Positions 6,101 through 50,682 of a stretch of DNA of 64,000 bases are shown here, piece by piece. The notes under the pieces were generated by a model. It saw nothing but the letters and a program-made list of their open reading frames with translations, searched no databases and was not told where the DNA came from. This DNA is from Dehalococcoidia bacterium. GTDB taxonomy: Bacteria; Chloroflexota; Dehalococcoidia; Lucifugimonadales; UBA3495. Location: positions 3,011,986-3,075,985 of the forward strand of contig OZ242027.1 of the NCBI GenBank assembly GCA_965204865.1. Direction: 5' to 3'. The position numbers and the translations under genes were made by a program. How positions within the stretch are numbered: position 1 is the stretch's first letter; each line of letters starts with the position of its first letter.

Positions 6101-6832
6101 ATGGATGATTATGTCATCAGCAACTCCGGGGTTAAGGTGTGGAAAACCCCGGAGTCCCATCCATTGCTAAGACAAACCGACACAACTCATCCGGCGTTCA
6201 AGGACAAACTCGCTGAAATTTATTCAAGGGGGCGAGTGAAGGGGCTTCCAAGAATTTGCAGCGTGAATTCCGAGGATGCGAGAACTTGGCACTATTTCAG
6301 CCCACTATTCTCTGATAACCGGAGAAAAGAGCTGGAATTAACATCTTTGTTGCGTCAAGCATTCCCTGAAACTCTGACAGCCAAAGTGCTAGAAACTGTC
6401 CTGTGCGCCGGGTTTGAGTTTTGGCAAAAGATTAACCCACCACCCAGCCGCCTAATAAAGGAAGGCCCATCTGAGCCAGACCTGCTGATAACCTTGGGGC
6501 AACACGCTATCGCACTTGTTGAAGCGAAATATCTTTCCAACGTCAGTGAGAAAACCACCTACGATAAAACACGAGATCAAGTAATTCGACTACTTGACGT
6601 TGGTTCCTGGTACGCAAAACAAGGCGGATATGATTCCAGCTACGTCATCGTGCTGCAATACGGTGACGCCCAAACCAATGCTGAAGAAATCGTCAGCCGC
6701 TATGCTGGGAAACCGGAGGCTATTCAGCGAGCCTTGCCCTACCGAACTGATTTGACAGAAGCAGACTATCAGCGATTGTCCCGCTCAGTGGCCTTTGTGC
6801 GCTGGTCCAATCCGCTGGATGAAGAACAATGA
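6101..6832 (+). CDS. hypothetical protein with PD-(D/E)xK nuclease-like motif
   Basis: ATG 6101 lies 6 nt after GGAG. The motif is EPDLLITLGQHAIALVEAKYLS (D...E-x-K), preceded by SEDARTWHYF. Clearly lower GC than flanks. Confidence 0.55.
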   Translation: MDDYVISNSGVKVWKTPESHPLLRQTDTTHPAFKDKLAEIYSRGRVKGLPRICSVNSEDARTWHYFSPLFSDNRRKELELTSLLRQAFPETLTAKVLETVLCAGFEFWQKINPPPSRLIKEGPSEPDLLITLGQHAIALVEAKYLSNVSEKTTYDKTRDQVIRLLDVGSWYAKQGGYDSSYVIVLQYGDAQTNAEEIVSRYAGKPEAIQRALPYRTDLTEADYQRLSRSVAFVRWSNPLDEEQ

Positions 6833-7578
6833 CCCGCACCGTAACCGACCCCGCCTCCGCCAACCGGGGCAGCCGCCGATGGCTGCAAGTCCTGGTCAAC
6901 TGCCGCCCCGGGCTGCTGGACGACGCGATTTGCCAGCGGCTGCCAGAGGCGCCCGGCGATATTGACTGGCGCTCGCCGGTGGCCGCCGACCACTATGCAG
7001 AGTACCGGGATCAGTCCTTCCTCGACCGGCTGGCCGGGTCGCCTTACTACCGTCCCCTGTCACAGGCGCAGCATGACCTGTCCGACTTCTGGCCCCGGTT
7101 CGGCCCGCAATGGGACGGCCTTGCCGTTACCGACAGGGGGCAGATTATCCTCGTCGAGGCGAAAGCCCACATCCCTGAGATGGTCACCGCTCCGGGGCAG
7201 GCGCGGGGAGAGACGGCGCGGCAGCGGATTCAGGACAGCCTGCAAACAGTCAAGTCCTTTGTAGAATCCAAGTCACCCGCCGACTGGTCGGCCAGCTTTT
7301 ACCAGTACGCCAACCGCCTGGCCCATCTGTACTGGCTGCGGGAGCTTAACGGCCACGACGCCTATCTGGTCAACCTGTTCTTTCTCAACGACTCCGAAAT
7401 GAACGGCCCCAAGTCCGTTGAAGAATGGCAGGCCGCCATCCGGTTGCAGGAAACGTTTATGGGAGTGCGCCAAGCCGCGCAGACCGGCTACGCGCTGCAC
7501 CCCTGGGTTGGAGCCTACGTCCTAGACGTGTTCATTGACACCAATGACATACCCGTCCGTTATCCGCCGCCAATTTAG
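6829..7578 (+). CDS. hypothetical protein with PD-(D/E)xK nuclease-like motif
   Basis: ATGA overlap with the upstream gene. The motif is GPQWDGLAVTDRGQIILVEAKAHIPE (D...E-x-K). Confidence 0.55.
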   Translation: MTRTVTDPASANRGSRRWLQVLVNCRPGLLDDAICQRLPEAPGDIDWRSPVAADHYAEYRDQSFLDRLAGSPYYRPLSQAQHDLSDFWPRFGPQWDGLAVTDRGQIILVEAKAHIPEMVTAPGQARGETARQRIQDSLQTVKSFVESKSPADWSASFYQYANRLAHLYWLRELNGHDAYLVNLFFLNDSEMNGPKSVEEWQAAIRLQETFMGVRQAAQTGYALHPWVGAYVLDVFIDTNDIPVRYPPPI

Positions 7579-7598: not shown

Positions 7599-8792
7599 AT
7601 GCCAGAGAAGTTCAGCTACGATGGACTGTTCGCCGCCGGAGTGCCCGAAGTAGTGCCCGGCAAGACCCGCCACGCCAGGTACGACTTCGCCGTCGCCTAC
7701 CCTAACCCCGACACCCTGCCGCTGGACGGGCTGGCCGACGCGGTTCGCAGCGTGCTGTCGCGGGAGGGCCGCGACCTAGCCTACTACACTGACCCCGGCG
7801 GATACCTGCCCCTCCGGCAACTGGTGGCGGAGCGCCTGCGCGCCAGCCGCAACATGACCGTAGACCCCGAGGGCCTGGTTCTGACCGGCGGCTCCGGCGA
7901 GGCCATTTCCATGGTCATCCAGGCCCTCACCGACCCCGGCGACACGGTGTTGACCGAGGAGTTCCTGTACCTCGGCACCCTGCGCTCCCTGCGCCGCTAC
8001 AAGGCCAACGTGGTGGGCGTCAAGTGCGACGATGACGGCATCATCCCCGAAGACCTGGACGCCACCATCCAGCGGCTCAAGGGCGAGGGCCGCAAGGTCA
8101 AGTACCTCTACACCATCCCCACCTTCCAGAACCCCCTGGGCTGGACCATGACATTGGAGCGCCGCAAGAAGGTGCTGGAAGTCACCCGCCAGCACGGCGT
8201 CCCGGTGTTCGAGGACGACTGCTACATTGACCTGCGCTTCGAGGGCGAGGACGTCGCTTCCTTCCACTCGCTGGACGACACCGGGCAGGTGATTTACGTC
8301 GGCTCCTTCTCCAAGACCATCGCTCCGGGGATGCGCATGGGCTACCTGGTGGCCCCGCCCGAGGTCATCAGCCGCGCCTGGGCCTTCAAGATGGGCGGCG
8401 CCGTCAACCACTTCGCCGCCCTCACCATCGCCGAGTACATGAACCACGGCGACCTGGAAGGCCACGTGCGCGAGCAGAACGAAACGCTGCGGGCCAAGCG
8501 CGACGCCATGCTGGCCTCGCTGGGCGAAAACTTCGGCGACGCCGCCGCCTGGACCAAGCCCGAGGGCGGCCTCTACGTCTGGCTGACCCTGCCCCAAGGC
8601 GCAGACCTGGAAGCCATCCAAGAGCAGGCGTTCCAGGAAGGCGTCGGCTACTACTCCGGTGTGCCGTTCTCGCCCGAGGGCCGCGGACACAACTCCGCCC
8701 GCCTCTGTTTCGGCTACCCCACGCCGGAGGAAAACTATGAGGGCGTCGCCGAGCTGGCCCGCATCCTGGAACGCCACGGGGTCATGGGCTAG
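7599..8792 (+). CDS. PLP-dependent aminotransferase (class I/II fold)
   Basis: SFSKTIAPGMRMGYLVAP PLP-lysine region. 397 aa. Confidence 0.85.
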   Translation: MPEKFSYDGLFAAGVPEVVPGKTRHARYDFAVAYPNPDTLPLDGLADAVRSVLSREGRDLAYYTDPGGYLPLRQLVAERLRASRNMTVDPEGLVLTGGSGEAISMVIQALTDPGDTVLTEEFLYLGTLRSLRRYKANVVGVKCDDDGIIPEDLDATIQRLKGEGRKVKYLYTIPTFQNPLGWTMTLERRKKVLEVTRQHGVPVFEDDCYIDLRFEGEDVASFHSLDDTGQVIYVGSFSKTIAPGMRMGYLVAPPEVISRAWAFKMGGAVNHFAALTIAEYMNHGDLEGHVREQNETLRAKRDAMLASLGENFGDAAAWTKPEGGLYVWLTLPQGADLEAIQEQAFQEGVGYYSGVPFSPEGRGHNSARLCFGYPTPEENYEGVAELARILERHGVMG

Positions 8793-8798
8793 GGTGGC

Positions 8799-9260
8799 CT
8801 AACCCCGAGGCATCAACTCGATTCCCAGCCCGTTGGGGTCCCTCAAGTAGAGGGAATGGCCCACTTCCTGGTACTTGACCCGGTTGGCATCCAGCCGGGT
8901 CTTCACTTTCTCGAAACTGTCGCGAGGGATGGGCATGGCGATGTGCATCACGTTGCCCACTCCCTCGGGCGCGCGGCGTTGCAGCCGGGGAACGTCGGGG
9001 AAGTCGAAAAACGCCAGGGTCATGCCGTTGCCGATGGCCACGTTCATGTGGGTCGACTCGGCCACGTCCCGGTTGGGCGTCACCCGCGTCACCGGCATTC
9101 CCATCACCTCGCTGTAGAAGCGGGCGGTCTGCTCCAGGTCCTTGGCGAAGACCGCAATGTGGTCGACTCCGCCGGTGGGGGCATCGGCGGCGCCCTCGGC
9201 GGGAATCATCGCCTGCAGCCTTTCGCGCTTGGCCTCGATGTCTTGGGCAGATGCAGTCAT
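8799..9260 (-). CDS. VOC family protein (glyoxalase/dioxygenase fold)
   Basis: GVDHIAVFAKDLEQTARFYSEVMGMPV is a typical VOC N-terminus. Start chosen at ATG 9260 (GGAGGA 4 nt upstream). An alternative ATG at 9272 overlaps the upstream stop (TGATG). Confidence 0.75.
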   Translation of the reverse strand: MTASAQDIEAKRERLQAMIPAEGAADAPTGGVDHIAVFAKDLEQTARFYSEVMGMPVTRVTPNRDVAESTHMNVAIGNGMTLAFFDFPDVPRLQRRAPEGVGNVMHIAMPIPRDSFEKVKTRLDANRVKYQEVGHSLYLRDPNGLGIELMPRG

Positions 9261-9271
9261 GGCGTCCTCCA

Positions 9272-9805
9272 TCAATCAGCGGGTTCGGACGGGTTCTCCA
9301 GGTCCAACATCGCCAGCAATCGCCCGTACCCGATGAACATTCCGGTAATCATCCCCAGCTCGAAAATCTCGGGATCGGTGAACTCCCGCCGCAGTTCCGC
9401 GAAGAACTCGTCGTCCACGTTCTGGTGATCGACGGACATACGCTCGGCGAAGCGGACGGCCAGCTTCTCCCTGTAGGGCAAATCGGTGTCCTCGAAGTGT
9501 ACGAGTGACGCCACCATTTCCTCGGTCATTCCCTGCTGCACCGCCGGCACAGCGCGACCCAGCTTTCAAGTGGCGCACTCGTTCAGCTCGGCAATCTTCA
9601 GCCGCACCAACTCCTTCAGCCGCGCGTCCAGCAGACCCTCCAGCTTCAGCGGCCCATAGAAGGCCCAGAACGCCTCATAGGCATCCGGCAGGTTGCCCGC
9701 CGCCTGGAATATCCGCGGGTTCAGCTTGTGCTCGGCTGCCGCCTTGGCGATTTTCTGCATTCCGGGCGTTAGCTGCTCGGTTGGCACCAGCTTAATCCGG
9801 GCCAT
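9272..9805 (-). CDS. carboxymuconolactone decarboxylase/AhpD-like protein, candidate selenoprotein (in-frame TGA at 9566..9568)
   Basis: ORFs 9566..9835 and 9272..9550 share one frame and are separated only by a TGA. The junction reads IAELNECAT-[TGA]-KLGRAVPAV, which is the family N-x-C-x-x-C motif with TGA on the second Cys. A hairpin follows about 20 nt downstream. Start ATG 9805 follows AAGGGG. Confidence 0.7.
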
Positions 9806-9822
9806 CTTTTTCCCCTTTTTAA

Positions 9823-9889
9823 CCACAGAGAGCACAGAGGACTCAGAGAGAATTTAAACAATACTCTGTGTTCTCCGTGCTCTCCGTGG
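9823..9889 (-). repeat. 27-28 nt inverted repeat built from CACAGAGNN 9-mers (intercistronic hairpin)
   Basis: CCACAGAGAGCACAGAGGACTCAGAGAG / ACTCTGTGTTCTCCGTGCTCTCCGTGG around a 12-nt loop. Two positions are G-U wobbles only in the minus-sense RNA. Confidence 0.7.
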
Positions 9890-9899
9890 TGAATTAACC

Positions 9900-11324
9900 C
9901 TACACTACCGGGCGGTCGGCCACCGCCGGGTCCACCTTGCGGCGCTGGAACCTCCCATCGCCGAGGGTGCCGTGGAAATTGCCGTCCTCCACAACCACCT
10001 TGCCCCGCAGGATGGTCATTACCGGCCAGCCCTCGACCTCGGTGCCTTCCCAGATGCTGTAGTCGGAGATGTGGAAGTCGTCCATGGTCAGCGTCTTCTT
10101 GATGCCGGGGTCTATCACGCAGATGTCGGCGTCACTGCCCGGGGCCAGCACGCCCTTCTGGGGCCACAGGCCCATAATCCTGGCGGCGTTGGCCGAGGTT
10201 ACGTCCACAAACCGTTGCAGGGTCATTCCCTGTTTCGACACGCCTTCGCTGTACGTAATGCCCATGCGAGCTTCGGCGCCGTTGTGGCCGCCGGTAGTAT
10301 CGGAGATGGTTCTGCCGGAAATTTTCGTCTCCCACGACGTGCAGTATTCGTCGGTCGCCATGGTCTGTAGGCCGCCGTTTATGATGCCGTCCCATAGCAT
10401 CTTCCGGTCGTCTTCCGACTTCAACGAGGGATAGGTATGGTACTTCATACCGTTCTCTTCCTTGTAGTTCTCTTCGTTGAAGCAGCAGTAGTTGTGCAGC
10501 GTCTCGCCGTAAATCGGGCGGCCATTGCGGCGGGCCTCCATGATGTTTCGAACGCCCTGCTGGGCGCTGACATGAACGAAGTAGATCGGAGAGCCGGTCC
10601 ACTCGGCCACCCGCAGCGTCCGCGTGAACGAGACATCCTCCGACTCCGCGCTGTGCACCTCCGACATATTGAACCACTCGGTGCGCTCTTCCCGCGTGAG
10701 CTTCTGATACATGTGCTGCACCATGTCGTCGTCCTCGGCGTGGACCAGCAGCATGGCGCTCAAGCGTTGAATCTCAGTCATCAGGTCGTGAAGATGGCCG
10801 GTGCCCACCATGCGGGGTTCGCCAGCGGTGGTGGGAGGGCGGATGTTGGTGGTGAATATCTTGACGCTGGCGAAGCCGTCCTCCACGAACTCGTGCAGGG
10901 AACCCAGGATGTTCTCGGGAATCTGCCCCAGCATCATCAGGTGGTGGGCGTAGTCGGAGTAAGAGTTCCCCTGCCATACCGCCGTGCGCTCTGCGATGGC
11001 CTGGGGAATGTCAATTCCAGGGTATTGGATGGCGAAGTCCATCAGGGTCGTAGTGCCGCCGAAGAGCGCGGCCCGGCTCACCTCCGGCGGGGGAGCGGTG
11101 GTAAGATTTCCGTGCCCCATGATGGGCGCGGAAATATGGGCATGGGGTTCGATGCCCCCTGGCACGACCACCTTGCCCGAAGCGTCAATAATCCGCCCCG
11201 CTTCGTCCCCCAGCGCCCCGGCCGCAGCCACCGCCACGATTCGTTCGCCCTGCACCGCCACATCCCAATCCCCTACCCCCATGGGGGTAACGACCTGCCC
11301 GCCGCGGATAATCAAGTCCAGCAT
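9900..11324 (-). CDS. dihydropyrimidinase/D-hydantoinase-type cyclic amidohydrolase
   Basis: N-terminal DLIIRGGQVV...GGIEPHAHI metal-binding HxH motif. 474 aa. Confidence 0.85.
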   Translation of the reverse strand: MLDLIIRGGQVVTPMGVGDWDVAVQGERIVAVAAAGALGDEAGRIIDASGKVVVPGGIEPHAHISAPIMGHGNLTTAPPPEVSRAALFGGTTTLMDFAIQYPGIDIPQAIAERTAVWQGNSYSDYAHHLMMLGQIPENILGSLHEFVEDGFASVKIFTTNIRPPTTAGEPRMVGTGHLHDLMTEIQRLSAMLLVHAEDDDMVQHMYQKLTREERTEWFNMSEVHSAESEDVSFTRTLRVAEWTGSPIYFVHVSAQQGVRNIMEARRNGRPIYGETLHNYCCFNEENYKEENGMKYHTYPSLKSEDDRKMLWDGIINGGLQTMATDEYCTSWETKISGRTISDTTGGHNGAEARMGITYSEGVSKQGMTLQRFVDVTSANAARIMGLWPQKGVLAPGSDADICVIDPGIKKTLTMDDFHISDYSIWEGTEVEGWPVMTILRGKVVVEDGNFHGTLGDGRFQRRKVDPAVADRPVV

Positions 11325-11444: not shown

Positions 11445-12851
11445 CTAATCCCCAGCCGCCGGCTGCGTCCTAGTGCCTTCCGTCTGTGCGGGTCGGGTTG
11501 CCTCCGCGGGCTGCGTCTGCGCCTCCGGCGGCAGTTCCTCCTCCCAGTCCGGCAGTTGGTGGTGGCGAGTGTTGGGCAGCGCGACGATGGACAGCACTCC
11601 AACCAGGCTCAGCACCAGCGACAGGCCCATAGTCGCGTCGAAGTTGCCGGTCCAGTCGCGGAGCCAGCCGCCGATCAGCGACCCCGCGGCCATGCCCACG
11701 CCCGCGCCCATCATCTGCCAGCCGTAGGTAGTGCCTATGGGCGCGCTGCCATAATACTGCCGGTTGATGATGGGGAAGGCGCTCATCTCGCCGCCGAACC
11801 CGATGCCGAACAGCACCGAGAACAGGTAGAAGTGCCAGGCGTCTGTGGAGAAGAACAGCAGCACGATGGGCAGGGTTTGCAGCGAGAAGCAGACGGCCAT
11901 CACACCCTTGCTGCCCACCCGGTCGGCCATAACCGGCACGGCGAACCGTGTCACCGTGCTGGTCACCGACAGGGTGACGAAGGCCCCCGCCGCCAGCCCC
12001 GGCGACACGCCCTCGGCCTCTGCGATGGCCACCAGGTAGACCAGCACGATGGCGTGTCCGGCGCAGCCCCAGAAGTGGATGCCGATGAGGTTCCAGAAGG
12101 CCAGGGTGCGCTGGGCCTGCTTGAAGAAGACCCGGGTGCGCAGCTTGGCTATCTCGCCCACCTGCATCTTGCGGACGGGCTCGTTTTCCGAAGCCCCCAG
12201 GGGACGCATACCAATCTGCGCCGGTTCGTCGTAGAAGAGCCGCACCAGCGCCAGGATCGCCACCCCGCCGATGATGCCGGGAACCCAGAAGGCAGCCCGC
12301 AGCCCCGGCAACCCGCCGCCGAACAGCGCGATGATCAGCAGCATTATCGGCACCGCCACCAGCGGGCCGACTCCCTGCGCCGACTGCAACAGGCCCATGC
12401 CGGTTCCCAGGTGCCGCTTGAACCACATGGTGACCGACGCCGTAAGAGGCACCTGGAAGATGCCCATGGAAGCGCTGAGGATGATCCCGAAGAAGAGATA
12501 GAACTGCCACAGATTGGTCATGAAGCCGGTCAGCACCATCCCGGCGATGAACAGGAAGGCGCCTATGGTCATGGTCACGCGGGCCCCGTAGCGGTCGCCC
12601 AGCCACCCGGCCGACGGCCCCAGCATTCCCGACACCACCCATTGCAGCGCAAACCCGAACCCCACCGCGCCATAGCTCCACCCGAAGGACTCCACCAACC
12701 GGGGAATCAGGATGCTGGACGACGAGCGGAAGGAGGAACTGAACAGCCGCATCACCGCCGCCACTCCCACGATTACCCAAGCATAATGCACCGGCCGCCC
12801 GGCGATAATCAGGTTGCTGAGGCGAAAGGAATACCGGGGAGCAGTTTCCAT
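11445..12851 (-). CDS. MFS transporter
   Basis: About 12 hydrophobic segments and the GWLGDRYGAR MFS loop 2-3 motif. The opposite-strand ORF 11439..12935 is a shadow. Confidence 0.85.
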   Translation of the reverse strand: METAPRYSFRLSNLIIAGRPVHYAWVIVGVAAVMRLFSSSFRSSSSILIPRLVESFGWSYGAVGFGFALQWVVSGMLGPSAGWLGDRYGARVTMTIGAFLFIAGMVLTGFMTNLWQFYLFFGIILSASMGIFQVPLTASVTMWFKRHLGTGMGLLQSAQGVGPLVAVPIMLLIIALFGGGLPGLRAAFWVPGIIGGVAILALVRLFYDEPAQIGMRPLGASENEPVRKMQVGEIAKLRTRVFFKQAQRTLAFWNLIGIHFWGCAGHAIVLVYLVAIAEAEGVSPGLAAGAFVTLSVTSTVTRFAVPVMADRVGSKGVMAVCFSLQTLPIVLLFFSTDAWHFYLFSVLFGIGFGGEMSAFPIINRQYYGSAPIGTTYGWQMMGAGVGMAAGSLIGGWLRDWTGNFDATMGLSLVLSLVGVLSIVALPNTRHHQLPDWEEELPPEAQTQPAEATRPAQTEGTRTQPAAGD

Positions 12852-15249: not shown

Positions 15250-15891
15250 ATGTACAGCATTTACTACAATCGCACCACCCCCTTTCTCGCTTTCTTGGAA
15301 GGCATGGTGCGCGTCTTCGACTGGGGCACCCTTCTGGAGATTAGGAAGAGATGGCGCAAGGGTCAGTCGGAACCCGAATCAGATTCCCCGCAAGATAAGG
15401 AATGGAGCAACCGAATCGTTGACTGGTACATCCGCGACGCCATAGCCGCTTTTGAGAGAGCGGAATCTGTCAGGCTGGCCGAAGACCCGATGTTGTACCG
15501 CCGTTCCTTTGCCGTCGCCGATGTTCTTCTAGGCCCGCTGTCCACGCAGGAAGTCATTCTGCGGTACGAGGAAATGGTCGCGGGCGCCTGCGACAGGATT
15601 ATGAGCAGGGCCTCCGATAGGCTCGACCACGACGGCAAAGTCGAGCTTGAGTTGTTGAAGCAACGGGCCAGGCAGGGCTATTGGGGCATGGCTGTCGGGT
15701 TTATCTTGTCGCTGCTGCTGGCCGCCAGCGCCATGTACCTGCTTTTTTCCGGCAATGACTCGGCCGGATTCTCCATTGTTGGAGTCAATATAGCGATAGC
15801 GGTGTCCGTTTCGGTATACATCTCCAAGGCACAGGTGCGAAGGAAGTTGTACACCCGGGATTTCTTCTTGAGGAAGAGGCGCAAACTCTAA
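15250..15891 (+). CDS. DUF2335-like membrane protein
   Basis: Lower-GC gene. The soluble N-half is followed by two C-terminal TM helices after LLKQRARQGYWGMAVGFILSLLL, resembling DUF2335 architecture. Confidence 0.45.
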   Translation: MYSIYYNRTTPFLAFLEGMVRVFDWGTLLEIRKRWRKGQSEPESDSPQDKEWSNRIVDWYIRDAIAAFERAESVRLAEDPMLYRRSFAVADVLLGPLSTQEVILRYEEMVAGACDRIMSRASDRLDHDGKVELELLKQRARQGYWGMAVGFILSLLLAASAMYLLFSGNDSAGFSIVGVNIAIAVSVSVYISKAQVRRKLYTRDFFLRKRRKL

Positions 15892-15917: not shown

Positions 15918-16496
15918 ATGATGACCTCGGCTAATCCCGTTGACCCCAACAGCATCCGGCTCACCGGCGAAAACTCCTTCATCCGTTTGGTGGAGGACGG
16001 AGAACAGACCACCCGCACCAGCCATTGGCGCGTCCTGTACTCACCCGGTGGCGCAGGACACGTGCTGTTCATCAAGAGCGACCTGGTGGATGGAGTCCGC
16101 ATCTATGCCGACAACATCGCCCTAGCCCGCTGGCTGCAAGAAGAAATCGAGAGTCTCCTGTTCCCGGAGTTCGCCGACCAGTCCATACAGGTCATTGACG
16201 CCGAGTTCAGCAGGAAGGGCGACACCTATACCTTCTGGACGGAGACCATCGAGACCGACGACGACCAGATTACCCTGACCTGGCACGACTTCCTGGAACC
16301 GTTCATGCTCACCGTCCCAGCCGGCAGCGCCCCGGGCCGTCCCCACGGCGTATACAGTTGCTTCATCCCGTCCCGCTCCGGCCGGGTAACCATCAACGGC
16401 GACGACGCCGACGGCCAAGTCGCCCTCGAAATGCGCGGCGAAAAGCAGAGCAGCACCGCCTGCCTGGCCTGGTCCGAGACCTGGGTGCGCCCGTAA
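15918..16496 (+). CDS. hypothetical protein
   Basis: 192-aa ORF with coding-like codon bias. No recognisable motif. Confidence 0.5.
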   Translation: MMTSANPVDPNSIRLTGENSFIRLVEDGEQTTRTSHWRVLYSPGGAGHVLFIKSDLVDGVRIYADNIALARWLQEEIESLLFPEFADQSIQVIDAEFSRKGDTYTFWTETIETDDDQITLTWHDFLEPFMLTVPAGSAPGRPHGVYSCFIPSRSGRVTINGDDADGQVALEMRGEKQSSTACLAWSETWVRP

Positions 16497-24767: not shown

Positions 24768-26246
24768 CTAACGGCCTCCGCCGTTGGGCAGTATGCCTCG
24801 AATTCGCAACTGTGTAATCAAGTGCTCTTGAGTTCGGTCCCCTTTGACCGAGTTGCAGGCTTGGCAAAGCAGTTGCAGGTTGCTGTCAATGTTCTGCCCG
24901 CCGCGTGCTGTGGGGATGATGTGATCGATGGTCATGTTGCGGAAGGGAAATAGAGTCTGGCATCCGTTGCAGATTCCTTCTTGCCTGCCGTATAGGACGT
25001 GTTTTATGTCACGGGAGCGTACTGCCTCGCCGCTGTCCGTTCTCACTGGCACGTCGGTGCGATGGGTGACATTGGCCAGCATACTGGGGCGGTCACCGTT
25101 ACCAACGTGAACCTCGCGTTCCAGCCGATCTCTGACCAGCCGGAAGGCCATCTCGCTGATGTCTATCCCAATCCACTGCCGCCCCAGCTTTTCCGCTGCT
25201 ACGCAGGCCGTGGCACACCCGCAGAACGGGTCGAAAACCACATCGCCCTCAATGGATGATGCGCCAACGATACGCTCCAATAGGCGCAGCGGCTTTTGAG
25301 TGGGATAGCCCGTGCGCTCTCTGGAACGGGCTGATATGGGCCTGATGTCATCCCACAGGTTGGTAGGCACCTGTCCAGGATTGGCAGCCAAGTAGCGCTT
25401 GATTCGAGGCATCCCGTCTGATTCGGAGTACTGGATCATGTTGGCGGCGTCTAAAGCATCCAGCCTGGCGTGTACACCGGTTATTTCCGTATATCCGGGA
25501 ATCACCTGATTGCTAATCCACTCCGCGTATCTTCCTGTACGGGGCACTGCCCAATGGCGATTATTGGAGTTCGGGTCATAAGTGCGCCAAGGAAGTCCTG
25601 TTTCCCCCTGCCTAGGACCAGCCCCGGTTAAATCACCAACCTGATACTGTCCCCTTGCGTCCGAGTGCCGGTAGAAAGACTCAACGTACTCGCGGTCTAA
25701 TGGAACTCGAATTGAATCTGCGTTTATATCGCCGGTACCGTAAACGATGATGCGGTCGCATACATTACCGAAGCGCCGTGAGTCATTGTGGGCCGAGGTG
25801 CGCCGCCAAGTTATCTCAGTTTGGAACAGTGCAGCACCAAACACCGCGTCCAGTAACATTTTCAGGTAGTGGCTGGCCGTCTGATCGCAATGCAGATACA
25901 GGGTGCCGCCAGGTTTGAGTATCCGTTGCATTTCCAGCAGGCGGATAGCCATATAGGTGAGGTATGCCTTGGTGCTTCTGCTTGCGACGGTTCCAGTGGC
26001 GTTGAGCATCTCGTGGACGCCTGGATGCTCGTCCGCGATTTGGCCGATCCACGCCTCATCTAAGTCGCTCAGCGTCCAAGTATCCTTGAACGCCGCGCCC
26101 GCCGCCTCACTGCCAATGGGGGCAGCGTAGTTGGTGTTGGAATTAAAAGGCGGATCAAGATAAATGAGGTCAATGGACTCACTGTCCATTCCCCGCATAA
26201 CTTCCAGATTGTCGCGGGTGAATATGGTGCGGTTGGCGATTTGCAT
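24768..26246 (-). CDS. DNA N4/N6-methyltransferase fused to a C-terminal HNH endonuclease domain
   Basis: Motif IV LIYLDPPFNS precedes motif I VVFDPFCGCATA (beta-class order). The C-terminus CNGC...HIIPTARGGQNIDSNLQLLCQACNSVKGDR is an HNH domain. Visibly lower GC than neighbours. Confidence 0.85.
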   Translation of the reverse strand: MQIANRTIFTRDNLEVMRGMDSESIDLIYLDPPFNSNTNYAAPIGSEAAGAAFKDTWTLSDLDEAWIGQIADEHPGVHEMLNATGTVASRSTKAYLTYMAIRLLEMQRILKPGGTLYLHCDQTASHYLKMLLDAVFGAALFQTEITWRRTSAHNDSRRFGNVCDRIIVYGTGDINADSIRVPLDREYVESFYRHSDARGQYQVGDLTGAGPRQGETGLPWRTYDPNSNNRHWAVPRTGRYAEWISNQVIPGYTEITGVHARLDALDAANMIQYSESDGMPRIKRYLAANPGQVPTNLWDDIRPISARSRERTGYPTQKPLRLLERIVGASSIEGDVVFDPFCGCATACVAAEKLGRQWIGIDISEMAFRLVRDRLEREVHVGNGDRPSMLANVTHRTDVPVRTDSGEAVRSRDIKHVLYGRQEGICNGCQTLFPFRNMTIDHIIPTARGGQNIDSNLQLLCQACNSVKGDRTQEHLITQLRIRGILPNGGGR

Positions 26247-27341: not shown

Positions 27342-28799
27342 CTACCGTCGCAGCGCCGCCCGCAGCGAGTACGACTGCGGCGAAATCGCCAGCCCGAACA
27401 CCTCGTCCTCCGGCAGCGGGTTGCCGTCCGGCCTCTCGAAGCGCAGCTTGTGCAGCATCCGGGTGATGTGCAGCCAGACCGTGGTTTCGGCGAAGCGGCG
27501 GCCGGGGCAGCGGCGGTGGCCGGTGCCGAAGGGGATGTAGGCCGGGCTGGTCAGCACGGGCGACATCGAGCCGTCAGGTTGGGGCAGGAATCGCTCCGGG
27601 ATGAACTCGTCGGGCGCGTCCCAGTAACGCGGGTTGTGGTGGATGGAGTAGATGTTGCCCAGGACCTGGGTTCTCGCCGGTATCCGGTAGCCGCCGATTT
27701 CCGTGTCCTCTGAGGCCATGTGCGGCAGGCCCAACGGGCCGATGGTGCGGTAGCGCATGGACTCGGCCAGGCAGGCGAAGGTGTAAGGCAAGCGCGTCCG
27801 GTCGTCCACTGTGGGCAGGGCGTCGTGGCCGATGACGCTATCCAGTTCCTCGTGGACTCTGGCCTGAATCTCCGGGCGGTTGGCCAGCAGCAACAGGAAC
27901 CAGTTGACCGTCTGCGCCGAAGTGTCGGTGCCGGCGATGAGCAAGTCCATGCATAGGTCGCAGGTCATGTCGTTGGTGATTTCGCCTGATTCCTCTCTGG
28001 ACAGCATCACCTCCACCAGGCAGGTGGGCGCCGAAAGGTCGAGACCGGGGCGGTTGCGGGCGGCTTCCACCAGGTCGCGGATGAGGGCTCCGCCGATTTC
28101 CGCCTGCCGAACGGCTTCCTTCAAGGCATTGCTGGGCAGGAGACGCAGCCAGGGGATGTAGTCAGCCAGGTTGGTGGCGGTGGCGCTGGCGAAAATGAAG
28201 TTGATATAGTCCAGCAGCGTATCCCGTTGTTGCAGGAACTCCGCGGTGTCGTCATCTTCCCGCCCGAAGACGGAGCGGAACATCAGCAGGGAGTTGCTGC
28301 GGGCCGTCATCACCATGGGCAGAACCGGCTCGCCGGCGTCGCCGTGCCGGGCCATTTGCTCCACTAGGCTGTTCACCACCCGCTCGATGTGCTGCTCGCG
28401 GACGTTATCAATGTTGCGGGCGCTCAACAGTTCCCGGTTGGCGAAGCGCTGCATCTGCCGCCAGTGGTCGCCGTAAGGGGCCATCACCAGGTCTTTCTGC
28501 CCGCTGAGGGCGTTCATAATTTCGCTGACCCAGCGATCGGCCAGTTCGGTCTTGCCGAAGGCGTCCTGCAACATTTCCGCGTTGCTGATTATCACTGTCG
28601 GCACGCTGCCGAAGCGCATCAGGCAGATGTCGCCGTAGCGCCGGGCCAGCCGGTCGATGGCGAGGTGAGTGTCGTGGCGTATCTCCAGCAGTGAGCCGAA
28701 CACAGGCATGCCGCGCGGACCCGGAGGCAGATTTTTGGGTAGAGTGGTAGTTACGGCGCTCATCTGTGCCACCTCTTCACGAAACACGGGGTGATTCAA
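27342..28799 (-). CDS. cytochrome P450
   Basis: Heme loop FGTGHRRCPGRRFAE and ExxR (ESMRYR). TTG start at 28799, or ATG at 28763. Confidence 0.85.
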   Translation of the reverse strand: MNHPVFREEVAQMSAVTTTLPKNLPPGPRGMPVFGSLLEIRHDTHLAIDRLARRYGDICLMRFGSVPTVIISNAEMLQDAFGKTELADRWVSEIMNALSGQKDLVMAPYGDHWRQMQRFANRELLSARNIDNVREQHIERVVNSLVEQMARHGDAGEPVLPMVMTARSNSLLMFRSVFGREDDDTAEFLQQRDTLLDYINFIFASATATNLADYIPWLRLLPSNALKEAVRQAEIGGALIRDLVEAARNRPGLDLSAPTCLVEVMLSREESGEITNDMTCDLCMDLLIAGTDTSAQTVNWFLLLLANRPEIQARVHEELDSVIGHDALPTVDDRTRLPYTFACLAESMRYRTIGPLGLPHMASEDTEIGGYRIPARTQVLGNIYSIHHNPRYWDAPDEFIPERFLPQPDGSMSPVLTSPAYIPFGTGHRRCPGRRFAETTVWLHITRMLHKLRFERPDGNPLPEDEVFGLAISPQSYSLRAALRR

Positions 28800-28918: not shown

Positions 28919-30463
28919 CTACCCGCCCTTGATGATGTCCGACATCCGCTCGGCAATCATTATGGTGGTGCAGTTGGTGTTGGCGCGGATGCAGTCGGGC
29001 ATTACCGAGGCGTCAATGACACGCAGGTTTTCCAAGCCCTTGACCCGGCACTGTTGGTCAACGACGGCCATGGGGTCGCTGTCCGGCCCCATCTTGCAGG
29101 TGCCGGAGATGTGCTGCGAAGTGGTGACGTTGCGCATCAGCCAGTTGTCCAGCGCCTCGTCCGACTCCAGGTCGGAAGGCAGTGGCTCGAGCAGCCCCTT
29201 CACGATGTCGGCGTAGTCGGGGTGGTCGAGGAAGCCCACGCAGAGCCGCACGGCCTCGCGCATCCGGGCTAGGTCGCGGGGGTCGTCGGCGAAGTAGTTG
29301 TAGTTCAGCTCCGGCTGCACGTTGGGATCAGTAGACGTGATGGTCAGGTGGCCCTTGCCGTAGGCCAGCTCCAGGATGCAGGTGAAGCGGATGCCCTCGG
29401 CCTCCAGCGGGTCGCCGGAGATGGGCGACGAGAAGGACGACGCCATAATCTGGATGTCGTTGCGCAACTCGGAGCCAGTGGCGGTGTAGCGCAGCGCCAC
29501 CTGGGTGCGCGGGTCCTGCGGGTTCAGAGGGAAGTCCTCCTTAACCTCGATGGGCACGCGGATGTTGGGATGGTCGCGCAGGTTCTGGCCGATGCCGGGG
29601 GTGTCCTGCACCACCGGGATGCCGAACTTTTCCAGCGTGGCCGCCGGGCCGACCCCGGACAGCATCAGTATTTGCGGCGAGGCGATGGCCCCGGAGCAGA
29701 GGATGATTTCCTCGCCCTCGACGGTGAACCGCTCGCCGCCGCTCTCCACCTCGGCCCCAATGGCCTTTTTGCCGTCGAACAGCACGCGGTGAACGGTGAC
29801 GTTGGCCTTGACCGTCAGGTTCAGGCGGTGGCGGGCGGCGCCAAGGAAGGTCAGGGAGGTGCTCATCCGCACGCCGTTGGGGTTGTTCATCGGGATGGGG
29901 CCGACTCCGCCCGATTCAGGGTGATTCATGTCCGGGTCATCGGGGAATCCTGCGGTGCGGGCGGCGTTGTAGAACGCCTGCTGCGCCGGCAGCCAAGTCT
30001 CCCGCGCGAAGCGGCGCACCGGGATGAAGCCGTCGGAGTTATGAAAGTCGTCGGCCCCGAAGTCCATGTCGCTTTCCAGCTTGCGCAGGTAGGGCAGGAC
30101 GCTGGTGAAGCCCCACTGGTCGTTGCCCAGGGCGGCCCAGGCGTCGTAATCCTCGGGCACGCCGCGCAACAGCACCTGGCCGTTGATGGCGCTGGAGCCA
30201 CCCACCACCCGGCCCCGCGGCACCGGCATCGGCTCGGTCTGCAACGGCGTGGTGTTGCCCTGGAAGGACCAGTTGTGTGGCGCGTCAATGGCCGATGCGG
30301 TCTGGTCATAGCCAAACTTCAGGTCGTCGGGGTAGGTCTCGAAGTCCGGGTAGTCCGGCCCGGCCTCCAGCAGCAGGACGGACTTGGAGGGATCTTCCGA
30401 CAACCGGCTGGCCATAGTGCAGCCGGCGGAGCCTGCGCCGAGGATGATGTAGTCGTATTTCAT
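28919..30463 (-). CDS. GMC family oxidoreductase (choline dehydrogenase-like)
   Basis: MKYDYIILGAGSAGC FAD motif and GGSSAINGQV. 514 aa. Confidence 0.85.
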   Translation of the reverse strand: MKYDYIILGAGSAGCTMASRLSEDPSKSVLLLEAGPDYPDFETYPDDLKFGYDQTASAIDAPHNWSFQGNTTPLQTEPMPVPRGRVVGGSSAINGQVLLRGVPEDYDAWAALGNDQWGFTSVLPYLRKLESDMDFGADDFHNSDGFIPVRRFARETWLPAQQAFYNAARTAGFPDDPDMNHPESGGVGPIPMNNPNGVRMSTSLTFLGAARHRLNLTVKANVTVHRVLFDGKKAIGAEVESGGERFTVEGEEIILCSGAIASPQILMLSGVGPAATLEKFGIPVVQDTPGIGQNLRDHPNIRVPIEVKEDFPLNPQDPRTQVALRYTATGSELRNDIQIMASSFSSPISGDPLEAEGIRFTCILELAYGKGHLTITSTDPNVQPELNYNYFADDPRDLARMREAVRLCVGFLDHPDYADIVKGLLEPLPSDLESDEALDNWLMRNVTTSQHISGTCKMGPDSDPMAVVDQQCRVKGLENLRVIDASVMPDCIRANTNCTTIMIAERMSDIIKGG

Positions 30464-32452: not shown

Positions 32453-32510
32453 TAATCTCCGTGTTCTCTGTGCGCTCTGTGTTGAATCCGTCTCCTGTAA
32501 GGAGGGAAAT

Positions 32511-34058
32511 ATGAAGTATGACTACATCGTGATTGGCGCCGGTTCCGCCGGCTCAATCATCGCCACGCGGCTGACCGAGGACCCCAATGTCTCGGTGCTG
32601 CTGCTGGAGGCTGGGCCGGACTACCCCGACTTCGAGCGGCTGCCCGAAGAGGTCAAGTTCGGCTACTCCACCGAAATAGACATCATGGTCAGCGACCATA
32701 ACTGGCAGTTCATCGGCAAGGCGACGGAGAGCGCCCCGCCGATGATGGTGCCGCGCGGCAAGGTCACCGGCGGCTCCAGCGCCATCAACGGCCAAGTGTT
32801 CCTGCGCGGCGTGCCCGAGGACTACGATTCCTGGGCGGAGATGGGCAACGACGAGTGGAAGTACACCGACTGCCTGCCCTACTTCCGTAAGCTGGAGACC
32901 GACAGCGACTTCTCCGACGACTTCCACGGCACCGACGGCCCCATCGTGTGCCACCGATTCAAGCCGGAGACTTGGCACCCGGCGCAGACGGCCTTCTACC
33001 AAGCCTGCCGCGAGGCCGGGTTCCCGGACAGCCCAGACCACAACAACCCGGAATCTACCGGCGTCGGCCCCACGCCCTTCAACAACCCCGGCGGCGTACG
33101 CATGAGCACCGCCCTGGGCTATCTGGATCAGACGCGCCATCGTCTCAACCTAACCATCCGAGCCAATTGCCACGTGCAGAAGATTCTGTTCGAGGGCAAC
33201 CGGGCCGTCGGCGCGTGGGTAGAGAGCGGGGGCGAGGTCTTTACCGTCGAGGGCAACGAGATAATCCTCAGCTCCGGCGCCATCGGCTCGCCGCATATCC
33301 TCCTGCTGTCGGGCGTCGGCCCGGCGGCGCACCTGCAAGAGCATGGCATCCCGGTGGTGGCCGACCTGCCCGGCGTGGGCCAGAATATGCGCGATCATCC
33401 CTTGGTCTGGGTGACCTGGCGCACCAGGCCGGAGGTGCCGCTGGACGGCCTGGCTCCCCGGATGCAGGTGACGCTGCGCTACACCGCCGACGGCTCGCCC
33501 CTGCGCAACGACATGAAGATGTCCATGCAGTCCTTCGCCACCGAGCGCATCAATCGGGGCGGCGACCGGATGGAGCCGGTGGGCATCCGCCTGACCAGCG
33601 GCATCCAGCTCGCGGCGGGCGCGGGCGAACTGCGGCTCAACTCTGCCGACCCTTCGCAGCAGCCATTCCTCGACTACCGCTACTTGGAAGACCCCTTCGA
33701 CCTGGAGCGGCTGCGGGAGACGGTGCGCCTCTGCGTCAAGCTGGGCGAGAGCGACGCCTTCAAGGACATCATCCAGGAGCGCATCGAACCCACCGACGAC
33801 GAACTGGCGACGGACGAGGCCTTGGACGAGTACCTGTTCCGCGAGGTGACCACCTCGCAGCACATATCCTGCACCGCCAAGATGGGATCGGCCGACGACC
33901 CCATGGCCGTGGTCAGCCAGTACGGCAAGGTGCACGGGCTGGAGGGCCTGCGGGTGGCCGACGCCTCCATAATGCCCGACTGCATCCGCGCCAACACCAA
34001 CGTGACCACGATGATGATCGGCGAGCGGGTGGCGGAGTTCATCAAGGCGGGGAAGTAG
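32511..34058 (+). CDS. GMC family oxidoreductase (paralog of 28919..30463)
   Basis: MKYDYIVIGAGSAGS FAD motif. Aligns along its full length with the other GMC gene. Confidence 0.85.
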   Translation: MKYDYIVIGAGSAGSIIATRLTEDPNVSVLLLEAGPDYPDFERLPEEVKFGYSTEIDIMVSDHNWQFIGKATESAPPMMVPRGKVTGGSSAINGQVFLRGVPEDYDSWAEMGNDEWKYTDCLPYFRKLETDSDFSDDFHGTDGPIVCHRFKPETWHPAQTAFYQACREAGFPDSPDHNNPESTGVGPTPFNNPGGVRMSTALGYLDQTRHRLNLTIRANCHVQKILFEGNRAVGAWVESGGEVFTVEGNEIILSSGAIGSPHILLLSGVGPAAHLQEHGIPVVADLPGVGQNMRDHPLVWVTWRTRPEVPLDGLAPRMQVTLRYTADGSPLRNDMKMSMQSFATERINRGGDRMEPVGIRLTSGIQLAAGAGELRLNSADPSQQPFLDYRYLEDPFDLERLRETVRLCVKLGESDAFKDIIQERIEPTDDELATDEALDEYLFREVTTSQHISCTAKMGSADDPMAVVSQYGKVHGLEGLRVADASIMPDCIRANTNVTTMMIGERVAEFIKAGK

Positions 34059-48874: not shown

Positions 48875-48922
48875 GACAGTCACTTTACGCCTATGTGGGG
48901 GAATAATCCAGCGGTTCATTAA

Positions 48923-49001
48923 TTGACATGGATGGACAGGATATACAGGATGATTTGATGGATGTTGCCAAAATCCTGTGCATCCTGTCCATCCATGTCA
49001 A
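48923..49001. repeat. 29-bp inverted repeat (CATGGATGGACAGGAT-type arms)
   Basis: TTGACATGGATGGACAGGATATACAGGAT ... ATCCTGTGCATCCTGTCCATCCATGTCAA, 27/29 complementary with a 21-nt spacer. Single arms occur at 40090..40125 and 51588..51616. Confidence 0.8.
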
Positions 49002-49006
49002 TAATC

Positions 49007-50584: not shown

Positions 50585-50682
50585 CCGTCATTCCGGCGAA
50601 AGCCGGAATCCAGGGGGTTCCGTGGGCAAACCATTCTACGGCATAGTGCGATTCTGGATTCCGGCTTTCGCCGGAATGACGG
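50585..50682. repeat. inverted pair of variant-B REP hairpins
   Basis: CCGTCATTCCGGCGAAAGCCGGAATCCAGG ... CTGGATTCCGGCTTTCGCCGGAATGACGG. Confidence 0.85.

What the first reader, a model, noticed from the sequence alone, without database searches (positions are those of the whole stretch)
9272..9805. Candidate C-x-x-U selenoprotein of the carboxymuconolactone decarboxylase/AhpD-like family
ORFs 9566..9835 and 9272..9550 (minus strand) are one reading frame broken only by TGA at 9566..9568. The junction reads LKIAELNECAT-[TGA]-KLGRAVPAVQQGMTEEM. CMD/AhpD-like proteins carry N-x-C-x-x-C at exactly this point, so the TGA replaces the second redox Cys. About 20 nt downstream the sense RNA folds as GCUGUGCC-GGC-GGUGCAGC (9553..9535). 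This is 8 bp including U-G and G-U wobbles. On the antisense strand those two positions become C-A and A-C mismatches, which argues for selection on the mRNA structure. The joined protein is 177 aa, the normal size for the family. AhpD-like selenoproteins have been reported from marine metagenomes, so the class is known. This locus would still be mis-annotated as two fragments.
Basis: partly seen in the sequence, partly recalled or inferred. Interest (0 to 1): 0.7.

Follow-up and report, generated by a model that had tools for sequence, protein, structure and literature searches.

The report
Selenocysteine AhpD-like redox protein gene
The two "fragment" ORFs are one 177-residue AhpD/CMD-family redox protein whose internal TGA is almost certainly read as selenocysteine with the help of a conserved RNA hairpin; this class has been known from marine metagenomes since 2005, so it is a well-supported but ordinary example that databases still split in two.

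Summary
One reading frame runs on the minus strand from ATG 9805 to the stop at 9272, and only TGA 9568..9566 (codon 80) interrupts it. All 50 intact or nearly intact orthologous loci from different Dehalococcoidia/SAR202 species keep TGA at that codon, while their true stop codons vary. Two further clades from other metagenomes keep it too. The four codons between the TGA and the next possible start are conserved as amino acids but vary freely at synonymous sites, so they are translated. A hairpin (window 9553..9535; 8 bp, loop GGC, 20 nt between UGA and loop, -10.2 kcal/mol) meets all four published criteria for a bacterial SECIS (selenocysteine insertion sequence). It is the stretch of the gene with the least synonymous variation. 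Across three clades, 6 of its 8 base pairs change on both sides while still pairing, and the loop never changes. The joined protein passes the Pfam CMD threshold and aligns along its whole length with solved AhpD-like structures. The TGA aligns with the second Cys of CxxC in 117 of 132 distant homologs. This subfamily carries Arg where classical AhpD carries His. Neither the window nor the fetched loci contain selenocysteine machinery, so that point rests on the literature. Verdict: a real CxxU selenoprotein, a new member of a known kind, and split into fragments in GenBank.

The parts
9272..9805 (-). Complete coding sequence of the selenoprotein: 177 aa including U80, with stop TGA at 9274..9272. 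It belongs to the AhpD-like/CMD family.
   Evidence: Searches show the frame. One search gives Pfam CMD at 30.5 bits, above the 23-bit cutoff, only when the halves are joined. One search shows PDB AhpD-like proteins aligning to residues 9-167. One search shows colinear orthologs in 50 loci.
9566..9568 (-). In-frame TGA, codon 80, predicted to encode selenocysteine. It is the second position of the C77-A-T-U80 redox motif.
   Evidence: TGA is present at this codon in 50 of 50 orthologs, whose terminal stops vary between TAG, TAA and TGA. It is also TGA in 11 loci of two further clades. It aligns with Cys in 117 of 132 homologs.
9535..9553 (-). Bacterial SECIS hairpin inside the coding sequence (codons 85-91): stem GCUGUGCC/GGUGCAGC and apical loop GGC (9545..9543).
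   Evidence: It has 8 bp, a 3-nt loop starting with GG, 20 nt between UGA and loop, and an energy of -10.2 kcal/mol. These meet the criteria in PMC13188914. In 49 distinct sequences, 99.5% of pair cells form standard pairs. Across three clades, 6 of 8 pairs change on both sides, a result reached by 0 of 500 shuffles. Synonymous codon entropy is 0.21 bits here against a gene mean of 1.12.
9554..9565 (-). Codons 81-84 (K-L-G-R), which lie between the TGA and the first possible downstream start (GTG, V86, at 9550..9548). R84 occupies the position of the AhpD histidine.
   Evidence: The amino acids are conserved while synonymous codons vary freely. L82 uses 5 codons, G83 uses 4, and R84 uses CGC, CGT, CGG, AGA and AGG. 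These codons are therefore translated, which requires reading through the TGA.
9575..9577 (-). Cys77 codon, the first residue of the CxxU motif.
   Evidence: Cys77 is invariant in the orthologs and is Cys in 122 of 132 homologs.
9611..9613 (-). Glu65 codon, 11 residues before Cys77. It corresponds to the conserved Glu of the AhpD motif E-x11-C-x-x-C.
   Evidence: Glu is present at this position in 123 of 132 homologs and aligns with the Glu of 2oyo and 2prr.
9811..9816 (-). Purine-rich AGGGGA, a probable ribosome-binding site 5 nt upstream of the ATG.
   Evidence: Read directly from the sequence. The N-terminus MARIKLVP is conserved in orthologs while the upstream DNA diverges.
9900..11324 (-). 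Upstream neighbour on the same strand: a dihydropyrimidinase/hydantoinase-like amidohydrolase.
   Evidence: It matches Pfam Amidohydro_1. It scores 353 bits against TIGR02033, below the 393 cutoff. It is syntenic in all 48 loci with any neighbour match and lies directly upstream of the selenoprotein gene in all but two of them (L017, L024).
11445..12851 (-). MFS transporter, the next gene upstream on the same strand.
   Evidence: It matches Pfam MFS_1 and is syntenic in nearly all loci.
8799..9260 (-). Downstream neighbour: a glyoxalase/VOC-family protein. GGAGGA lies upstream of its ATG (9260), just after the selenoprotein stop (9274..9272). An alternative ATG at 9272 overlaps that stop. The two genes probably share a transcript.
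   Evidence: It matches Pfam Glyoxalase. The sequence was read. It is present directly downstream in about 20 of the orthologous loci.

Best explanation
This is one gene for a 177-residue AhpD-like/CMD-family redox protein with selenocysteine at position 80 (motif C77-A-T-U80).

Proposed mechanism of recoding: during translation, an 8-bp hairpin with a GGC loop starts 12 nt after the UGA. It acts as a bacterial SECIS by binding SelB-GTP-Sec-tRNA(Sec), so the UGA is decoded as Sec rather than as a stop.

Proposed chemistry: the protein adopts the all-helical AhpD fold. The selenolate of U80 is the nucleophile, in the position of the second Cys of CxxC. After it reacts with an oxidised substrate or partner, it forms a selenenylsulfide with C77, which a cellular thiol reductant then reduces. 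Glu65 of the AhpD proton-relay motif is kept. The His is replaced by Arg84, as it is in most Cys-containing relatives of this subfamily.

In the SAR202/Dehalococcoidia clade the gene sits in a conserved cassette: MFS transporter, hydantoinase-like amidohydrolase, selenoprotein, and often a VOC protein. The substrate is unknown.

Shown here: a single conserved frame, a conserved TGA, translation of the codons immediately after it, a conserved and covarying hairpin, family membership, and the Cys/Sec alignment. Inferred: SelB-dependent Sec insertion, the selenenylsulfide chemistry, and any physiological role.
For: - **Conserved TGA.** TGA is kept at codon 80 in 50 of 50 orthologs at 54-95% amino-acid identity, while their real stops vary. 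It is also kept in 11 more loci from two further clades.
- **Translation past the TGA.** Codons 81-84 are conserved as amino acids with free synonymous variation, and they lie upstream of any possible restart codon.
- **Selection on the RNA.** The hairpin codons 85-91 have the lowest synonymous entropy in the gene, 0.21 against a mean of 1.12 bits.
- **Pairing within the SAR202 clade.** 99.5% of pair cells are paired. Every change at the two wobble pairs but one (a U-U mismatch in L047) turns them into Watson-Crick pairs: U-G to C-G 7 times, U-G to U-A once, and G-U to A-U 6 times.
- **Covariation across three clades.** 6 of 8 pairs change on both sides. The covariation score is 0.376 against 0.181 for shuffles, reached by 0 of 500 shuffles, and the slid controls score 0.074 or less. 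The GGC loop is invariant.
- **SECIS criteria.** All four criteria quoted in PMC13188914 are met. Sense energy is -10.2 and antisense -4.5 kcal/mol.
- **Family.** Pfam CMD is passed only by the joined protein. PDB AhpD-like proteins align along the full length, with U opposite the second Cys. Of 132 homologs, 117 have Cys at the U position, 123 have Glu65 and 90 have Arg84.
- **Literature.** CxxU AhpD-like and CMD selenoproteins are established marine families (PMC1088965, PMC2398784). Dehalococcoidia MAGs (metagenome-assembled genomes) are listed with 46-49 selenoprotein genes (PMC13326102).
Against: - No selA, selB, selD or tRNA-Sec was found in the 64-kb window, and no tRNA-Sec in the first 51 fetched loci, where sel genes were not searched. 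The rest of the genome could not be reached, so the machinery is not shown for this organism.
- No Rfam family matches the hairpin.
- The single-sequence fold is not better than shuffles.
- No second selenoprotein gene turned up in about 1 Mb of related loci.
- There is no protein-level evidence. Selenium incorporation was not and cannot be tested here.
- The protein scores below the cutoffs of the curated NCBIfam (seleno)protein models, so its exact subfamily and substrate are undefined.
Confidence: 0.9

Rival explanations
1. The TGA is read through, but not as selenocysteine. A near-cognate tRNA could insert Trp or Cys, or the stop could be leaky and stimulated by the hairpin, giving an ordinary residue at position 80.
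For: Selenocysteine machinery was not found in the sequence available. A few distant homologs have Trp (TGG) at this position, for example P0037 with NACRYW and 2 of 132.
Against: The hairpin matches the specific bacterial SECIS pattern: G in the first two loop positions and correct spacing. Its loop is invariant across three clades. The site is the catalytic second Cys of CxxC, where Sec is the known replacement in this family (PMC1088965, PMC2398784). TGA also serves as a true terminator of the same gene in several orthologs. Dehalococcoidia MAGs are reported to be rich in selenoproteins (PMC13326102).
Confidence: 0.05
2. The gene is split. The two ORFs are made as separate polypeptides of 79 and 92 aa, which may assemble into an AhpD-like fold.
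For: Gene callers and GenBank annotate the halves separately. A GTG (V86) could in principle restart translation.
Against: Codons 81-85, which lie upstream of that GTG, are under amino-acid-level purifying selection with free synonymous change. There is no ribosome-binding site before the GTG; that stretch is the conserved hairpin. The break falls exactly on the active-site residue, so a split would remove the second redox residue. The stop is TGA in every one of about 60 sequences and never TAA or TAG.
Confidence: 0.03
3. The TGA is a nonsense mutation in a pseudogene, or an assembly or sequencing error.
For: None beyond the presence of a stop codon. One ortholog (L049) does look disrupted further downstream.
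Against: Independent assemblies from about 60 species or samples carry the identical TGA and an intact, conserved downstream frame.
Confidence: 0.01

Closest known systems
AhpD-like and CMD-domain selenoproteins (CxxU) from the Sargasso Sea and GOS metagenomes (Zhang, Gladyshev and co-workers, 2005 and 2008; PMC1088965, PMC2398784)
   Same: It has the same superfamily fold, the same CxxU motif with Sec replacing the second Cys, a SECIS hairpin with a G-containing apical loop just downstream of the UGA, a marine bacterial origin, and abundant Cys homologs.
   Different: I could not obtain the published sequences, so I cannot say whether this ortholog group is among them. This group has Arg rather than His four residues after Sec. 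It scores below the cutoff of TIGR01926, the model the 2026 review uses for 'AhpD-like protein' (45.6 against 81.8 bits).
NCBIfam NF053654 'YciW-related (seleno)protein' (GroundWater_YciW)
   Same: It is the best NCBIfam match (65 bits over residues 1-153). That family also mixes Sec and Cys forms of a YciW/AhpD-like protein.
   Different: The score is far below the 310-bit cutoff. The relationship is distant, so this protein is not a member.
Mycobacterium tuberculosis AhpD and solved AhpD-like proteins (PDB 2oyo, 2prr, 2ijc, 6k40)
   Same: The alignment covers the full length, and the motif E-x11-C-x-x-[C/U] is kept. From my own knowledge of AhpD (Glu118, Cys130, Cys133, His137), the second Cys is the reactive nucleophile. 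That is the position Sec occupies here.
   Different: Sec replaces Cys and Arg84 replaces the catalytic His. There is no AhpC partner gene nearby. The neighbours are an amidohydrolase, an MFS transporter and a VOC protein.
Escherichia coli fdhF-type bacterial SECIS and the bSECISearch consensus model
   Same: The hairpin lies inside the coding sequence immediately 3' of the UGA. It has a small apical loop with GG in the first positions, 20 nt between UGA and loop, and an 8-bp stem.
   Different: The loop is very short (3 nt, or CGGCG if the closing pair is counted). There is no evidence of a bulged U, and no Rfam model matches.
Bmp8 tetrabromopyrrole debrominase (PDB 6ohi), a CMD-family thiol-dependent dehalogenase
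   Same: There is weak sequence similarity over residues 33-168 (E = 0.016). It belongs to the same superfamily and comes from marine bacteria.
   Different: The similarity is marginal and the function was not tested. No paper on Bmp8 was available in the library, so this is only a lead recalled from memory.

Membership tests
Pfam CMD (PF02627), AhpD-like superfamily | The whole-protein score reaches the gathering threshold of 23 bits. | tested here: met
   The joined protein with U read as C scores 30.5 bits, E = 3.7e-7. The N-terminal half alone scores 21.3, below the cutoff, and the C-terminal half has no hit.
AhpD catalytic motif E-x11-C-x-x-C-x3-H | A conserved Glu lies 12 residues before the first Cys. 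| tested here: met
   Glu65 and Cys77 are present. Glu occupies this column in 123 of 132 homologs.
AhpD catalytic motif E-x11-C-x-x-C-x3-H | Two redox residues are spaced C-x-x-C. | tested here: met
   The motif is C77-A-T-U80. The TGA aligns with the second Cys in PDB homologs and in 117 of 132 homologs.
AhpD catalytic motif E-x11-C-x-x-C-x3-H | A His lies four residues after the second Cys. | tested here: not met
   Position 84 is Arg in the window, in all orthologs, and in 90 of 132 homologs. His occurs in only 5.
NCBIfam TIGR01926 'peroxidase-related enzyme' (used for 'AhpD-like protein' selenoproteins in PMC13188914) | The score reaches the curated cutoff of 81.8 bits. | tested here: not met
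   The score is 45.6 bits.
NCBIfam NF053654 YciW-related (seleno)protein | The score reaches the curated cutoff of 310 bits. | tested here: not met
   The score is 65.1 bits.
Bacterial selenoprotein gene | An in-frame UGA is conserved among orthologs, with a conserved coding frame on both sides. | tested here: met
   50 of 50 orthologous loci plus 11 loci of other clades carry it. A coding signature is present on both sides. Codons 81-84 are under amino-acid-level selection.
Bacterial selenoprotein gene | A bacterial SECIS is present: 3-9 nt apical loop, 4-16 bp stem, G in the first two loop positions, 16-37 nt from UGA to loop, and MFE of -7.5 kcal/mol or lower. | tested here: met
   The loop is GGC, the stem has 8 bp, the spacing is 20 nt, and the energy is -10.2 kcal/mol. 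All 51 sequences reach -9.0 or lower. The criteria are taken from PMC13188914. Covariation is shown.
Bacterial selenoprotein gene | Homologs exist with Cys in place of Sec. | tested here: met
   117 of 132 full-length homologs have Cys there. Examples include P0040 (CALC) and L063-L069 (CGYC).
Bacterial selenoprotein gene | The same genome carries the selenocysteine machinery (selA, selB, selC/tRNA-Sec, selD). | not testable with these tools
   None was found in the window, and no tRNA-Sec in the first 51 fetched loci; sel genes there were not searched. The only support is indirect: Dehalococcoidia MAGs are listed with 46-49 selenoprotein genes in BSepDB (PMC13326102).
Bacterial selenoprotein gene | Selenium is incorporated into the full-length protein. 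| not testable with these tools
   This needs 75Se labelling or mass spectrometry.

The most novel reading that the evidence does not exclude
In SAR202/Dehalococcoidia the selenoprotein may not be a peroxide-defence protein. It may instead be a catalytic component of the conserved cassette formed by the MFS transporter, the hydantoinase-like amidohydrolase, the Sec-CMD protein and the VOC protein. In that reading its selenol would perform a reductive step on a heterocyclic marine substrate, for example dehalogenation of the kind done by Bmp8 or the deiodinases, or cleavage of a C-S bond. The C-x-x-[C/U]-x3-R proteins would then form a mechanistically distinct branch of the CMD superfamily that works without the AhpD histidine.
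Probability: 0.1. Interest if true: 0.55.

Novelty: new member of a known kind. Interest (0 to 1): 0.25.

Why it matters
The practical consequence concerns annotation. This gene and its roughly 60 relatives are recorded in public databases as two short 'hypothetical protein' or 'alkylhydroperoxidase family' fragments. The redox active site is therefore lost from every catalogue built on those gene calls.

On the biology side, it adds a well-supported CxxU selenoprotein with a clearly covarying SECIS to the abundant marine SAR202/Dehalococcoidia lineage. It also links that protein to a conserved transporter-amidohydrolase gene cluster whose substrate is unknown. It does not change what is understood about selenoproteins, because CxxU AhpD-like proteins have been among the commonest marine selenoprotein families since 2005-2008.

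Tried and rejected
- **Rfam.** There were no hits at gathering thresholds on the whole window. At E up to 10 on 9200..9900, only chance matches to microRNA and lncRNA families appeared, and no SECIS family.
- **Single-sequence folding.** The 71 nt after the TGA fold no better than shuffles (z = +0.32). Energy alone is therefore not evidence.
- **Lower-stem extension.** The extension seen in the single-sequence MFE (GGUC with GACC) is not conserved. Codon 83 varies between GGT, GGC, GGA and GGG with no compensating change. I dropped it.
- **Machinery in the available sequence.** ARAGORN found no tRNA-Sec in the window or in 51 loci. Pfam annotation of about 40 window genes found no selA, selB or selD.
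- **Other selenoprotein genes.** A scan for other in-frame TGA candidates found none in the window. In about 1 Mb of loci it found only one unrelated and unexplained candidate.
- **Exhaustive representative search.** I worked around this with a balanced alignment of the window halves plus Cys homologs.
- **Exact-sequence look-ups.** The window's own proteins are not in the collections, so the source record and the rest of the genome could not be reached.
- **BSepDB supplements.** None are held as text.
- **Bmp8.** No paper was available.

Full report
**1. The observation.**
On the minus strand, one reading frame runs from ATG 9805..9803 to stop TGA 9274..9272. The ATG is preceded by AGGGGA at 9816..9811. 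The frame has 178 codons, and only TGA 9568..9566 (codon 80) interrupts it. The junction reads ...LKIAELNECAT-TGA-KLGRAVPAVQQGMTEEM. A six-frame scan for TGA codons flanked on both sides by a coding-type GC pattern (high GC3, low GC2) returned this site alone in the 64-kb window.

**2. It is one gene, and it is conserved.**
In a search of 5.8 billion proteins, almost every close hit was a fragment of about 100 aa. Each covered either the N-terminal half, ending ...N[ED]CAT, or the C-terminal half, starting [MV]PAVQQGM. Gene callers therefore split the gene in the same place everywhere.

A scan of one genome per GTDB species returned 51 loci, almost all from Dehalococcoidia, SAR202 or Chloroflexota MAGs. 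One locus is cut by a contig end. All 50 others have TGA at the same codon and a colinear downstream frame, at 54-95% amino-acid identity. Their true terminators vary between TAG, TAA and TGA. A metagenome scan seeded with the most divergent member found two further clades that also carry TGA. One has ELN[AE]CRT-TGA-QRSRTAQAVQ, the other RLNDCAT-TGA-LSARF. The same scan found Cys-containing relatives with HQCGYCSTVRS.

Codons 81-84 (K/R-L-G-R) lie between the TGA and the first possible restart codon, GTG at V86. They are conserved as amino acids but vary freely at synonymous sites. Arg84, for example, uses CGC, CGT, CGG, AGA and AGG. That is the signature of translated sequence. It excludes a pseudogene, a sequencing error, and a two-polypeptide arrangement.

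**3. The hairpin.**
Counting the T of TGA as nucleotide 1, nucleotides 16-34 (window 9553..9535) form GCUGUGCC-GGC-GGUGCAGC. This is 8 bp, including one U-G and one G-U wobble, at -10.2 kcal/mol. The antisense strand reaches only -4.5. The fold of this single sequence is no better than shuffles in the GC-rich context, so the case rests on comparison between species.

- Among 48 colinear orthologs, codons 85-91 have a mean synonymous codon entropy of 0.21 bits against a gene mean of 1.12. This is the minimum for the gene. GCT, CCG, GCG and the first CAG (codon 90) are invariant, although Ala and Pro each have four codons.
- In 49 distinct sequences, 99.5% of pair cells are paired. Every substitution at the two wobble pairs but one (a U-U mismatch in L047) creates a Watson-Crick pair: U-G to C-G 7 times, U-G to U-A once, and G-U to A-U 6 times. 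RNAalifold recovers the same helix.
- The hairpin sits at the identical position in the other two clades with different sequence. The SAR202 clade has CUGUGCC-GGC-GGUGCAG. Clade B has CUGCAC[GA]-GGC-[CU]GUGCAG. L061 has UUCCAUC-GGC-GAUGGAA.
- On a 17-sequence alignment, 6 of 8 pairs change on both sides. The covariation score is 0.376 against 0.181 for shuffles, reached by 0 of 500 shuffles. Versions with the 3' partner slid by 1-3 columns score 0.074 or less. The loop GGC is invariant.

The published bacterial SECIS model requires a 3-9 nt loop, a 4-16 bp stem, a G in the first two loop positions, 16-37 nt between UGA and loop, and an MFE of -7.5 kcal/mol or lower (PMC13188914). Here the loop is GGC, the stem has 8 bp, the spacing is 20 nt, and the energy is -10.2. 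All 51 sequences in the first set reach -9.0 or lower. No Rfam family matches.

**4. The protein.**
With U read as C, the joined protein passes Pfam CMD (30.5 bits, cutoff 23). The N-terminal half alone is below the cutoff and the C-terminal half matches nothing. Solved AhpD-like proteins (2oyo, 2prr, 2ijc/2o4d, 6k40) align over residues 9-167, with NECATU opposite N[RQG]C[LA]YC.

An exhaustive profile search of 1.84 billion representatives gave 7,658 relatives. Of the 132 best that span the site, at 22-45% identity:

| Position | Residue | Count out of 132 |
|---|---|---|
| U80 | Cys | 117 |
| 77 and 80 together | Cys and Cys | 115 |
| 65 | Glu | 123 |
| 84 | Arg | 90 |
| 84 | His | 5 |

The protein therefore belongs to an E-x11-C-x-x-[C/U]-x3-R branch of the AhpD/CMD superfamily. 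It lacks the classical AhpD histidine. It scores below the cutoffs of TIGR01926 (45.6 against 81.8 bits) and of NF053654 'YciW-related (seleno)protein' (65 against 310 bits). No Cys-containing relative exceeds about 45% identity, so the Sec forms make up their own ortholog groups.

**5. Context.**
Upstream on the same strand lie an MFS transporter (11445..12851) and a dihydropyrimidinase/hydantoinase-like amidohydrolase (9900..11324). The amidohydrolase scores 353 bits against TIGR02033, below the 393 cutoff. Downstream lies a glyoxalase/VOC protein (8799..9260), with GGAGGA just upstream of its ATG, directly after the selenoprotein stop codon. A PLP aminotransferase (7599..8792) converges on the cluster from the other strand.

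The order MFS, amidohydrolase, selenoprotein is kept in nearly all SAR202/Dehalococcoidia loci, and about 20 of them also have the VOC gene directly downstream. The soil-type clade has different neighbours. In L014 (OZ242013.1) the flanking aminotransferase and amidohydrolase are 98-99% identical to the window's (the MFS transporter and the 6829..7578 ORF 93-94%), so the window comes from that species or a very close relative.

**6. What is missing.**
No tRNA was found in the window or in the first 51 fetched loci. About 40 window genes were annotated and none is a sel gene. No second selenoprotein gene appeared in about 1 Mb of related loci. The rest of the genome could not be reached. Sec-decoding capacity is therefore inferred from two things: the SECIS-type hairpin, and the literature. 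BSepDB lists Dehalococcoidia MAGs, including one from the same UUID-named series as the loci here, with 46-49 selenoprotein genes (PMC13326102).

**7. Comparison with what is known.**
CxxU 'AhpD-like' (COG2128) and 'CMD domain' (PF02627) selenoproteins were described from the Sargasso Sea in 2005, with 27 and 4 sequences respectively. In GOS, AhpD-like 1 had 299 sequences and AhpD-like 2 had 70, which places them among the most abundant marine selenoprotein families. The 2026 review lists both. The present gene behaves like these families in every respect tested.

It differs from the curated models by the Arg-for-His change and by sub-threshold scores. I could not determine whether this exact ortholog group is already in those catalogues. 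GenBank entries for orthologs are 94-aa 'hypothetical protein' fragments, for example MQF88496.1 and MAF38617.1.

**8. Verdict.**
My confidence that this is a genuine Sec-containing AhpD-like/CMD protein is about 0.9. I rate the novelty as a new member of a known kind and the interest as low to moderate. The value lies in correcting the annotation, in a clear example of a covarying bacterial SECIS, and in the unexplained link to a conserved transporter-amidohydrolase cassette.

Noticed in passing
window 9820..9892 (minus-strand RNA), between the amidohydrolase stop and the selenoprotein start: A long imperfect hairpin folds at -41.7 kcal/mol, z = -7.3 against shuffles. Several of its pairs are G-U, so it pairs well only on the sense transcript. 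One arm has a third, looser copy at 32463..32482. Orthologous loci have a strong hairpin in the same intergenic gap. In L018, L026, L032 and L033 it is of the same sequence type; in many others it is unrelated, for example GTAGGGGCGGG...CCCGCCCCTAC. It may be a terminator, an mRNA stabiliser, or a REP-like element. Its function is unknown.
   Followed up: partly
window 50585..50682 and 55987..56085: Two intergenic palindromes share nearly the same 29-nt arms (CCGTCATTCCGGC..GCCGGAATCCAG / CTGGATTCCGGC..GCCGGAATGACGG). They look like copies of a repeated palindromic element. A separate 30-nt inverted repeat lies at 48922..49002.
   Followed up: no
L049 (CBDCUJ010000020.1), locus 10001..10330 and downstream: This ortholog keeps the Sec TGA but stops at a TAG at codon 110. 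The VOC gene lies about 1.7 kb further away than usual. The gene looks disrupted by an insertion.
   Followed up: no
L012 near 15459 (-) and L049 near 17101 (-): Another in-frame TGA has a coding-type composition on both sides (...D[KQ]PFFSDE[DG]LY-TGA-F...). It is present in two related genomes. It could be a second recoding site, a frameshift, or a pseudogene.
   Followed up: no
Homologs P0037, P0081 and P0050 (protein database): A few full-length relatives have Trp at the Sec/Cys position (NACRYW, ECSYW, CEYW). TGG is one base from TGA, so these may be Sec-to-Trp replacements.
   Followed up: no
window 6829..7578 (+), 15250..15891 (+), 15918..16496 (+), 62259..63950 (-): These ORFs have a coding-type composition but no Pfam or NCBIfam match. 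The ORF at 6829..7578 is syntenic and 68-93% identical in most related genomes.
   Followed up: no
window 24768..26246 (-); 27342..28799 (-); 28919..30463 (-) and 32511..34058 (+); 36859..38628 (-): The window also holds a DNA methylase fused to an HNH nuclease, a cytochrome P450, two paralogous GMC oxidoreductases, and a tryptophan-halogenase-like flavoprotein. This is consistent with the oxidative catabolic repertoire of SAR202-type Chloroflexota.
   Followed up: no
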